Sequence record: PZ386946.1
DNA length: 44,504 bases
Strand: one strand, 5' to 3'
From: a phage
Shown here piece by piece: positions 39,395 through 40,461 of this stretch. Every line of letters starts with the position of its first letter. The first letter of the stretch is position 1. The notes beneath the pieces were generated by a model. It saw only the letters and a program-made list of their open reading frames with translations. It had not been told where the DNA came from and did no database searches. A program made the position numbers and the translations under genes.

Positions 39395-39916
39395 ATGTCA
39401 AATCGCATTCAACCAGTAAGCCTTGGTGATGTTATCCGCTACATGGCTAAGCAGGCACTTAAGGCCGATAACCGGACTTTTCATGTTCCAATCTACATGA
39501 TAGCTCGCCAGGTGTACGGCCTTACGGTTGGTGATGTTGGGAGGATTAGTGCTGAAGATCTCGAGGCTGGCGGCAAATACAGTGTGGCAAAGTTGAAGGC
39601 GTCATACGTCTCTAACACAGTTGCCAGGATGCCGGAGATTCAGGAGGCGAACGTTCGGGCCAAGCTGTCAATCAAGGACGGAGACTTCGGTGATGATGTT
39701 GATGTTCGATGCGCATACATCACCTTGGTCGATGGGGCAATCCAGACAGGAAAGAGAGTGAAGGCCAACAACCACGTAGCTGATAAGGCTGTAAGCGACT
39801 TTAAGGATAGAATCCTCAAACTAATGCCATCCGTGACTAACTTTGAAGGAGATGAGATTACCGGAGCCATCAAGGCAATTAAGATGTACCAGGAAATGAT
39901 CAAGGATACAAAGTAA
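39395..39916 (+). CDS. hypothetical protein
   Basis: 173 aa, first plus gene after AT-rich hub B; sigma70-like promoter TTGATA-N17-TATTAT at 39326..39354 upstream. Confidence 0.5.
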   Translation: MSNRIQPVSLGDVIRYMAKQALKADNRTFHVPIYMIARQVYGLTVGDVGRISAEDLEAGGKYSVAKLKASYVSNTVARMPEIQEANVRAKLSIKDGDFGDDVDVRCAYITLVDGAIQTGKRVKANNHVADKAVSDFKDRILKLMPSVTNFEGDEITGAIKAIKMYQEMIKDTK

Positions 39917-40461
39917 TGGGGATATTTGATTTTAACGAAGATAAGCTGACTGATGATGAGATTATGAAGATTGCCATGCGGGATGGTCTTCCTCCGATTC
40001 GAGTAGCGATAAATGCTAATGGATATCGGCAGTCTCAATCGTTCTGGTGTGGTGTTGAGGAGCTGCTCAGCACAAAGCTCAACAGTAAGTCAGGCGTAGT
40101 TGTGCGAAAGATTCACGGCCAGAGCAGGAACGGTAAAGGGGTTGTCGGCATTCGATCAACATACGAAGCTATGAGAAAGGTCCAGCCATTTGTCGGACTT
40201 ACCGGATTCATGCATGACCTTAAAAATAACACCCTTCCATCACTACAGGACGCAGGAATCATCTGCTTAATCGGGGACAAGATTTACGTGCATCCATATA
40301 TCGTGGGAATGCATGAGATAGAAGTTGAAGAGTGGTGCAACTCTTGGGATGCTGGTGAGCACCCTAGTAGACTACCATACCACTTGCGGTACAGCGAGGA
40401 AGAGGTGGAGATGGCGATTGAGTTCTACCGGAAAGCTAAATCACTACTTAGCGGTGAATAG
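39916..40461 (+). CDS. truncated paralog of the DUF3987-like protein (N- and C-terminal modules only, no ATPase core)
   Basis: 181 aa; N-term FDFNEDKL...LPPIRVAINANGYRQSQSFW and C-term NGKGVVGIRSTYEAMRKVQPF...CLIGDKIYVHP align with ends of 35581..37164 product. Confidence 0.55.
   Translation: MGIFDFNEDKLTDDEIMKIAMRDGLPPIRVAINANGYRQSQSFWCGVEELLSTKLNSKSGVVVRKIHGQSRNGKGVVGIRSTYEAMRKVQPFVGLTGFMHDLKNNTLPSLQDAGIICLIGDKIYVHPYIVGMHEIEVEEWCNSWDAGEHPSRLPYHLRYSEEEVEMAIEFYRKAKSLLSGE

What the first reader, a model, noticed from the sequence alone, without database searches (positions are those of the whole stretch)
39916..40461. 181-aa paralog retaining only the N- and C-terminal modules of the 527-aa P-loop protein
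The first roughly 45 residues (FDFNEDKL...LPPIRVAINANGYRQSQSFW) and the last roughly 60 residues (NGKGVVGIRSTYEAMRKVQPF...LIGDKIYVHPYIVG) align with the two ends of the 35581..37164 product. The ATPase core is absent. The gene sits on the opposite strand about 2.7 kb away. Such a mini-protein could compete for the same partner or DNA site as the full-length ATPase (a regulator or dominant-negative form), or it may be a deletion remnant of a duplication.
Basis: seen in the sequence. Interest (0 to 1): 0.7.

Follow-up and report, generated by a model that had tools for sequence, protein, structure and literature searches.

The report
Core-less copy of phage replicative helicase
This T1-like E. 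coli phage carries a conserved small gene that is a copy of its own replicative helicase with the whole ATPase motor cut out. Only the two end domains remain, so the protein probably mimics the helicase's docking surfaces without being able to unwind DNA.

Summary
ORF 39916..40461 (+, 181 aa) matches the two ends of the 527-aa helicase 35581..37164 (-). Mini residues 3-44 match helicase 1-42 (74% identity, E 2e-20). Mini residues 58-131 match helicase 454-527 (profile E 8e-23). About 400 residues, the whole MCM-like AAA+ core (Pfam DUF3987), are missing. The mini also has a 50-residue tail that the helicase lacks.

It is not a dead remnant. It belongs to a conserved family (phrog_7327; 310 protein clusters; 108 phage records, nearly all from E. 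coli or Shigella phages). dN/dS is 0.15-0.30, against 0.017 for the helicase. It is predicted to fold confidently into three N-terminal helices plus a winged helix resembling the ORC, Cdc6 and MCM winged helices. Of the 43 best-conserved positions, 41 equal the resident helicase residue, although synonymous sites between the copies are saturated. The family has one origin, from this helicase lineage.

The gene is accessory. It is second in a hypervariable early operon and is deleted or carries nonsense mutations in 7 of 20 sampled relatives whose helicases are 93-98% identical.

Most likely it is a non-catalytic mimic of the helicase ends that competes for their ligand. That mechanism is inferred, not shown.

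The parts
39916..40461 (+). Mini-protein gene (181 aa plus stop), member of phrog_7327
   Evidence: ORF. Full-length phrog_7327 match, E 2e-71. 310 homologous protein clusters. dN/dS 0.15-0.30.
39922..40065 (+). N module (codons 3-50), homologous to helicase residues 1-48. Predicted helices at 13-23, 27-35, 38-43 and 47-51 (the first three match the helicase's N-terminal helices). Acidic (pI 4.4).
   Evidence: BLASTP E 2e-20. AF2 model. dN/dS 0.15. pI.
40066..40086 (+). Short junction or linker (codons 51-57) at the site of the roughly 400-residue deletion
   Evidence: Lies between the two aligned blocks. dN/dS 0.30.
40087..40308 (+). Winged-helix module (codons 58-131), homologous to helicase residues 454-527. 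Basic (pI 9.9).
40309..40458 (+). Family-specific tail (codons 132-181). Residues 132-158 are variable and near-neutral; residues 161-179 form a conserved amphipathic helix. Its first ~13-24 residues may derive from Met1 onward of the gene downstream of the helicase.
   Evidence: dN/dS 1.0 for 132-158 and 0.26 for 159-181. The tail occurs only in this locus type. Colinear junction test P about 2e-4, but unconstrained tests are not significant.
35581..37164 (-). Parent gene: 527-aa DUF3987 MCM-like (SF6) replicative helicase
37021..37164 (-). Helicase N module (residues 1-48), counterpart of the mini N module
   Evidence: dN/dS 0.011.
35875..36924 (-). Helicase AAA+ core (residues 81-430, Walker A PPSTGKS at 121-127), absent from the mini
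   Evidence: Pfam envelope. Translation. MCM fold matches.
35584..35805 (-). Helicase C-terminal winged helix (residues 454-527), counterpart of the mini winged-helix module
   Evidence: dN/dS 0.011.
35157..35492 (-). 111-aa gene downstream of the helicase (phrog_2794). In many relatives it abuts the helicase stop codon in frame. Possible donor of the start of the mini tail.
   Evidence: Junction tests.
39395..39916 (+). DUF7174 gene, first gene of the rightward early operon. Its TAA stop overlaps the mini ATG (TAATG).
   Evidence: Pfam DUF7174 E 5e-51. Sequence. Always adjacent to the mini in relatives.
39326..39354 (+). Sigma-70-like promoter with extended -10 (TTGATA-17-TATTAT, TG), upstream of the DUF7174-mini pair
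   Evidence: Consensus scan, 10 of 12 matches. The TTGATAACATGTA block is conserved in relatives. Function not shown.

Best explanation
The ORF is a functional accessory early gene of E. coli T1-like phages (Drexlerviridae).

Origin. It arose once, by duplication of the phage's own MCM-like replicative helicase gene. An in-frame loss of about 400 residues then removed the whole AAA+ motor. Translation possibly reads on into the 5' end of the next gene.

Product. The protein is a compact, ATPase-less fusion of the helicase's N-terminal three-helix element and its C-terminal winged helix, plus a short acidic tail.

Proposed mechanism. Almost every residue the family conserves is the residue found in the resident helicase. 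The protein therefore most likely binds the same ligand or ligands as the helicase's non-catalytic ends. Candidates are a recruitment partner (as for MCM winged helices), DNA, or a host factor. It cannot form a ring or hydrolyse ATP, so it would act as a stoichiometric mimic: a competitor or decoy that modulates what the helicase ends interact with.

Accessory character. The gene is non-essential, fast-evolving and repeatedly lost. That fits a conflict or fine-tuning role rather than core replication.

Shown: homology, domain content, selection, single origin, dispensability. Inferred: ligand sharing and competition.
For: Homology of both ends. No ATPase domain. Conserved family of 174-190 aa proteins.

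Purifying selection: dN/dS 0.15-0.30 overall, 0.15 in the N module and 0.16 in the winged helix.

41 of 43 positions that are at least 90% conserved equal the resident helicase residue, including lineage-specific ones. Synonymous sites between the copies are saturated (pS 0.74-0.76), so this is constraint and not recent gene conversion.

The minis are monophyletic (49 of 50 bootstraps) and sister to window-type helicases (42 of 50).

Dispensability: the gene is deleted in L010 and L012 and absent in L003 and L004. It carries nonsense or frameshift lesions in L002, L007, L009, L011 and L022. Their helicases, where the locus includes the gene (not L022), are 93-98% identical to the window's.

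Early-operon position with stop/start overlap.

[quoted passage not shown] A DUF3987 helicase binds its primase (PMC11724360).
Against: No ligand or partner has been identified.

The mini evolves about 10 times faster than the helicase. Two conserved positions differ diagnostically (T12 vs S10; H126 vs the near-invariant helicase N522). The binding specificity may therefore have shifted.

Frequent inactivation could also mean the protein is of marginal use.

The conserved tail helix (161-179) has no helicase counterpart and is not explained by mimicry.
Confidence: 0.5

Rival explanations
1. Immune decoy or host-takeover version of the mimic. The free N plus winged-helix protein is made early. 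It either titrates a host (or prophage or satellite) factor that recognises the helicase ends, or it captures a host replisome component that the helicase must recruit, since these phages encode no DNA polymerase. Selection for it fluctuates with the host.
For: The gene lies in a hypervariable early cassette next to DUF7174. DUF7174 is 32-93% identical and the mini 47-86% identical among phages whose helicases are 92-98% identical. Independent nonsense mutations recur and cluster at codons 36-40 and 140-148, and whole-gene deletions occur. Helicase-like residues are retained. T1-like phages lack a DNA polymerase and use the host one (PMC11447400).
Against: No PADLOC, NCBIfam or Pfam signal. 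No literature links this family to defence. Gene loss in isolates can equally reflect relaxed selection during laboratory propagation.
Confidence: 0.2
2. Positive replication factor: an origin-binding or helicase-loading adaptor. It would bind DNA through the basic winged helix and bring in the helicase or primase.
For: The winged-helix module is basic (pI 9.9). Fold matches are to initiator (ORC, Cdc6) winged helices. The gene is divergently placed next to an AT-rich intergenic region with a palindrome and repeats.
Against: The gene is absent, deleted or truncated in phages with 98%-identical helicases, so it is not required for replication. The palindrome persists in L010, which lacks the mini. 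No interaction surface for the helicase ring is evident.
Confidence: 0.12
3. Co-opted DNA-binding regulator. The helicase-derived winged helix now serves as a transcription factor for the early region, and its resemblance to the helicase is only historical.
For: Basic winged helix. An operator-like palindrome TTCCTACAATTGTAGGAA lies 235 bp upstream of the operon. The gene is in the early operon.
Against: This does not explain why the acidic N module stays about 65% identical to the helicase N module, as similar as the minis are to each other, with saturated synonymous sites. Operator variants do not track the presence or type of the mini.
Confidence: 0.1
4. Non-functional deletion remnant (pseudogene) of a duplicated helicase.
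For: Its origin clearly is duplication plus deletion. Five of 20 sampled relatives carry stop codons or frameshifts and two carry deletions.
Against: There are 310 protein clusters with conserved length. dN/dS is 0.15-0.30 with module-specific constraint. The open frame is intact in the window and in 12 other sampled lineages. The fold prediction is confident. Stop/start coupling with the upstream gene is conserved.
Confidence: 0.04

Closest known systems
DUF3987 (SF6, MCM-related) phage and mobile-element replicative helicases, e.g. AgaPH (PMC11724360), and the family analysis in PMC4889955
   Same: The mini shares ancestry with this family. Its N-terminal element and C-terminal winged helix are direct homologues of those of the resident helicase.
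   Different: It lacks the whole Walker A/B AAA+ core that defines the family. It cannot be a helicase and has an extra 50-residue tail.
C-terminal winged-helix domains of MCM, ORC and Cdc6. From my own knowledge: MCM winged helices mediate recruitment to the origin-bound initiator and modulate helicase activity.
   Different: Sequence identity is only 9-15%. Here the winged helix is a free-standing protein fused to a small N-terminal bundle. No recruitment partner is known in T1-like phages.
HSV-1 OBPC (UL8.5), a truncated form of the UL9 origin-binding helicase that keeps only the C-terminal DNA-binding domain and can inhibit replication (own knowledge; no paper found in the library)
   Same: It is a motor-less derivative of a viral replicative or initiator helicase that keeps a ligand-binding end domain. 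The proposed action is by competition.
   Different: OBPC is an in-frame internal product of the same gene. Here there is a separate, old, diverged paralogous gene that joins both ends of the helicase, and its function is untested.
PHROG family phrog_7327 (unknown function)
   Same: The window protein matches the full profile (3-181 vs 1-179 of 179, E 2e-71).
   Different: None. This is the family it belongs to. The library gives it no function and does not note its helicase origin.

Membership tests
phrog_7327 | Full-length match to the family profile | tested here: met
   E 2.2e-71, residues 3-181 on profile positions 1-179 of 179.
DUF3987 / SF6 MCM-like helicase | AAA+ P-loop core with Walker A and B motifs (Pfam PF13148) | tested here: not met
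   No Pfam hit even at E up to 10. The alignment to the helicase skips residues ~49-453. 'NGKG' in the mini is part of the winged helix, not a GK[ST] P-loop (sequence).
DUF3987 / SF6 MCM-like helicase | [quoted passage not shown] | tested here: met
Winged-helix fold (ORC, Cdc6, MCM type) | H1-S1-H2-H3-S2-S3 topology with structural similarity to solved winged-helix domains | tested here: met
Winged-helix DNA-binding proteins | Sequence-specific or non-specific DNA binding | not testable with these tools
   Only indirect evidence: the module pI is 9.9. No binding site was identified. Many of the top fold matches are protein-binding winged helices (kleisins, Stn1, RPA32).
HEPN domain proteins (the annotation given to the homologue in phage UDF157lw) | Match to a HEPN profile or the Rx4-6H motif in an all-helical fold | tested here: not met
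   No Pfam or NCBIfam hit. The predicted fold is a winged helix. The annotation was seen.
Known anti-phage defence proteins (PADLOC) | Match to a defence-system HMM | tested here: not met
   No hit for the mini or for DUF7174 at E up to 0.1.

The most novel reading that the evidence does not exclude
The mini-protein is a molecular decoy of the replicative helicase's docking domains. It would be deployed early in infection to absorb a host, prophage or satellite factor that targets the helicase ends, or to seize the host replisome component the helicase must recruit. The clustered, recurrent nonsense mutations that remove either the N module or the tail would then be footprints of an ongoing conflict. 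It would be a self-derived decoy gene made by excising the catalytic domain from a phage's own essential enzyme.
Probability: 0.2. Interest if true: 0.75.

Novelty: new variant of a known kind. Interest (0 to 1): 0.5.

Why it matters
Very little is known about how T1-like phages start replication. They bring a helicase and a primase but no polymerase.

A natural, conserved protein consisting only of the helicase's two non-catalytic ends is a ready-made probe for what those ends bind. That could be an initiator, the primase, DNA or a host replisome part.

It also gives a clean example of a new gene born by excising a catalytic domain from a duplicated essential gene.

If it proves to be a competitor or decoy, it would add a self-mimicry strategy to phage replication control or phage-host conflict. 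It might also explain why this locus is so variable and so often broken in isolates.

Tried and rejected
1. Sequence search of the PDB with the helicase, the mini profile and DUF7174 gave nothing usable.
2. NCBIfam and PADLOC gave no hits. Pfam on the isolated N and winged-helix segments at E up to 10 gave nothing, so there is no PriCT support.
3. The BFVD fold search returned only family members and helicases.
4. A scan of IMG/VR for relatives gave a single locus.
afdb50 was unavailable. The family's wider range and metagenomic contexts were therefore not explored.
6. Recent gene conversion between the paralogues is rejected, because synonymous sites are saturated.
7. I tested whether the tail is homologous to the N-terminus of the gene after the helicase. 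Unconstrained tests are not significant (hhalign P 0.19; Smith-Waterman permutation P 0.40). Only the position-constrained test is significant (P about 2e-4), and I designed it after seeing the tblastn extensions. I keep it as a lead, not a finding.
8. The intergenic palindrome as the mini's binding site is not supported. It persists in a phage without the mini, and its variants do not track mini type.
9. Apparent stand-alone hits in Shigella phage DS8 and Aeromonas phage pIS4-A turned out to be unannotated full-length helicases.
10. Literature searches for DUF7174, for Drexlerviridae helicase escape mutants and for OBPC found nothing relevant.

Full report
**What the window is.** The window is a complete genome of about 44.5 kb from a T1-like E. 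coli phage (Drexlerviridae, Braunvirinae-like). The large terminase starts at base 1 and the small terminase is at 43981..44487. The best DNA match is phage JulesPiccard at about 87% identity. The replication and recombination genes are:
- a DnaG-type primase (25852..26775, minus strand)
- an SF2 helicase (27408..29402)
- a RecE-like exonuclease, an Erf-like annealing protein and SSB
- the 527-aa protein of this finding

**The observation.** ORF 39916..40461 (+, 181 aa) and ORF 35581..37164 (-, 527 aa) both exist.
- BLASTP aligns mini 3-44 with helicase 1-42 (74% identity, E 2e-20) and mini 69-131 with helicase 465-527 (54%, E 1e-21).
- Profile-profile comparison of the two families extends the C block to mini 58-131 = helicase 454-527 (E 7.8e-23).
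- The helicase carries Pfam DUF3987 over residues 81-430 (E 6e-42), and the mini has no Pfam domain.
- So about 400 residues (~49-453) are missing.
A 50-residue tail follows that the helicase lacks.

**What the mini is.**
- It matches PHROG family phrog_7327 over its full length (E 2e-71). That family has no assigned function.
- It has 310 homologous protein clusters, almost all 174-190 aa.
- tblastn finds it in 108 phage records, nearly all E. coli or Shigella phages, at E ≤ 1e-30. 812 records hit at E ≤ 1e-3, and most of those match only through their helicase ends.
- The sampled carriers belong to Braunvirinae, Rogunavirinae and Nouzillyvirus.
- The family alignment conserves exactly the helicase-like blocks plus a terminal helix.
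- AF2 predicts a confident compact protein (pLDDT 83, pTM 0.70, residues 11-140 at about 90). It has the same three N-terminal helices, a canonical winged helix (H57-69, E76-78, H79-86, H98-112, hairpin 116-125), a disordered stretch and a final helix at 161-179.
- The winged-helix module is basic (pI 9.9). The N module and the tail are acidic.

**Selection.** The table gives Nei-Gojobori dN/dS on unsaturated pairs.

| Gene or region | dN/dS |
|---|---|
| Mini, whole gene | 0.15-0.30 |
| Mini N module | 0.15 |
| Mini winged helix | 0.16 |
| Mini tail 132-158 | about 1.0 |
| Mini tail 159-181 | 0.26 |
| Helicase, whole gene | 0.017 |
| Helicase N and winged-helix modules | 0.011 |

The mini is therefore a real gene under purifying selection, about ten times more relaxed than its parent.

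**Origin.**
- Synonymous sites between the paralogous modules within the window are saturated (pS 0.74-0.76; nucleotide identity 67% and 53%). The duplication is old and there has been no recent gene conversion.
- Yet 41 of the 43 mini positions conserved in at least 90% of family members carry the residue of the resident helicase. These include residues found in only 21-47% of the wider helicase family.
- The mini N modules are as similar to the helicase N module (65%) as they are to each other (68%).
- In a neighbour-joining tree of the concatenated modules, the minis are monophyletic (49 of 50 bootstraps). They are sister to the window-type helicases (42 of 50).
- This points to a single origin inside this phage lineage.
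- The tail may derive from the gene that follows the helicase. In many relatives that gene abuts the helicase stop codon in frame. tblastn alignments of the mini run across that stop. The best register puts the tail's M132 on that gene's Met1, exactly after G131 = G527.
- A position-constrained permutation test gives P about 2e-4, but unconstrained tests are not significant. I treat this as a lead only.

**Context and dispensability.**
- The mini is the second gene of the rightward early operon. Its ATG overlaps the TAA of the DUF7174 gene (TAATG).
- The pair sits behind a good sigma-70-like promoter with an extended -10.
- It is transcribed divergently from the leftward operon, which ends with the helicase, the 111-aa gene and a bidirectional terminator.
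- Among relatives whose helicases are 92-98% identical, the mini is only 47-86% identical and DUF7174 only 32-93% identical. The two recombine independently.
- I sampled 20 lineages that carry the locus:

| State of the mini gene | Lineages | Details |
|---|---|---|
| Intact | 13 | The window and 12 relatives |
| Nonsense or frameshift lesions | 5 | Stops at window-numbered codons 36, 39 and 40 in three lineages; stops at 140, 147 and 148 in three lineages (one phage, L009, has both) |
| Codons ~1-150 deleted | 2 | L010 and L012 |

- Some metagenomic gene calls start at an internal valine, which implies further N-terminal disruptions.
- ACG-M12 and IsaakIselin lack the gene altogether.
- The gene is therefore accessory and under fluctuating selection.

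**Interpretation.** The shown facts are homology, loss of the motor, fold, constraint, single origin and dispensability. Together they best fit a non-catalytic mimic of the helicase's end domains. I infer that it binds what those ends bind.
- By analogy with MCM winged helices (my own knowledge), that ligand could be a recruitment partner.
- Alternatively it could be DNA, or a host replisome component. These phages have no polymerase of their own (PMC11447400).
- Either way the mini would act by competition.
- An essential loader role is unlikely, given how often the gene is lost.
- A pure pseudogene is excluded for this window.
- A co-opted transcription factor does not explain the constraint on the N module.
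- Whether the mimic tunes the phage's own replication or serves in a conflict with the host or rival elements cannot be decided from sequence alone.

**Limits.**
- No complex prediction was possible.
- The dN/dS values rest on a few pairs.

Noticed in passing
window 35500..35577 (-): A 25-aa strongly hydrophobic mini-ORF (MLNKYWLVIVALCLVGPYILAIMLH) sits between the helicase stop and the downstream 111-aa gene. An equivalent hydrophobic ORF with a different sequence occupies the same ~90-nt insert in L001, L006, L009, L010 and L012. In L002-L005, L007, L008 and L011 the two genes abut with only 1-2 codons between them.
   Followed up: partly
window 39160..39197: An operator-like perfect palindrome TTCCTACAATTGTAGGAA, plus a third TGTAGGAAT half-site 19 nt downstream, lies in the divergent-promoter region. 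The arrangement is conserved in six relatives. A variant palindrome (TTCTGACA..TGTCAGAA) occurs in L007 and L010. It is present even where the mini gene is deleted.
   Followed up: partly
window 33121..33699 and 40656..41270 (+): There are two paralogous P-loop dNMP-kinase-like genes. Both hit phrog_139 and phrog_31701. This is a second duplicated gene pair in the genome.
   Followed up: no
window 39395..39916 (+) and homologues in L001-L025: The DUF7174 gene upstream of the mini is hypervariable: 32-93% amino-acid identity among phages whose helicases are 92-98% identical. It recombines independently of the mini. For example, L014 has an L011-type promoter and DUF7174 but an L005-type mini. 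It has no structural or functional annotation.
   Followed up: partly
mini homologues in L002, L007, L009, L011 and L022 (window codons 36-40 and 140-148): Independent nonsense mutations cluster in two short windows. One removes the N module and may leave a winged-helix-plus-tail product from an internal GTG. The other removes only the tail. All three stop codon types are used, so suppression or readthrough is unlikely.
   Followed up: partly
L010 5937..6029 and L012 5583..5675: In two phages the mini is deleted except for its last ~31 codons. These remain 90% identical in protein sequence to the window's tail but have no evident start codon. The deletion may be recent, or the DNA may be conserved for another reason.
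   Followed up: no
window 39078..39100: A (TAT)n microsatellite lies in the AT-rich divergent intergenic region. Similar runs are present in the relatives.
   Followed up: no
L016 1036..1596 (phage UDF157lw): The public record annotates the mini homologue as a 'HEPN domain-containing protein'. No profile or fold evidence supports this.
   Followed up: yes
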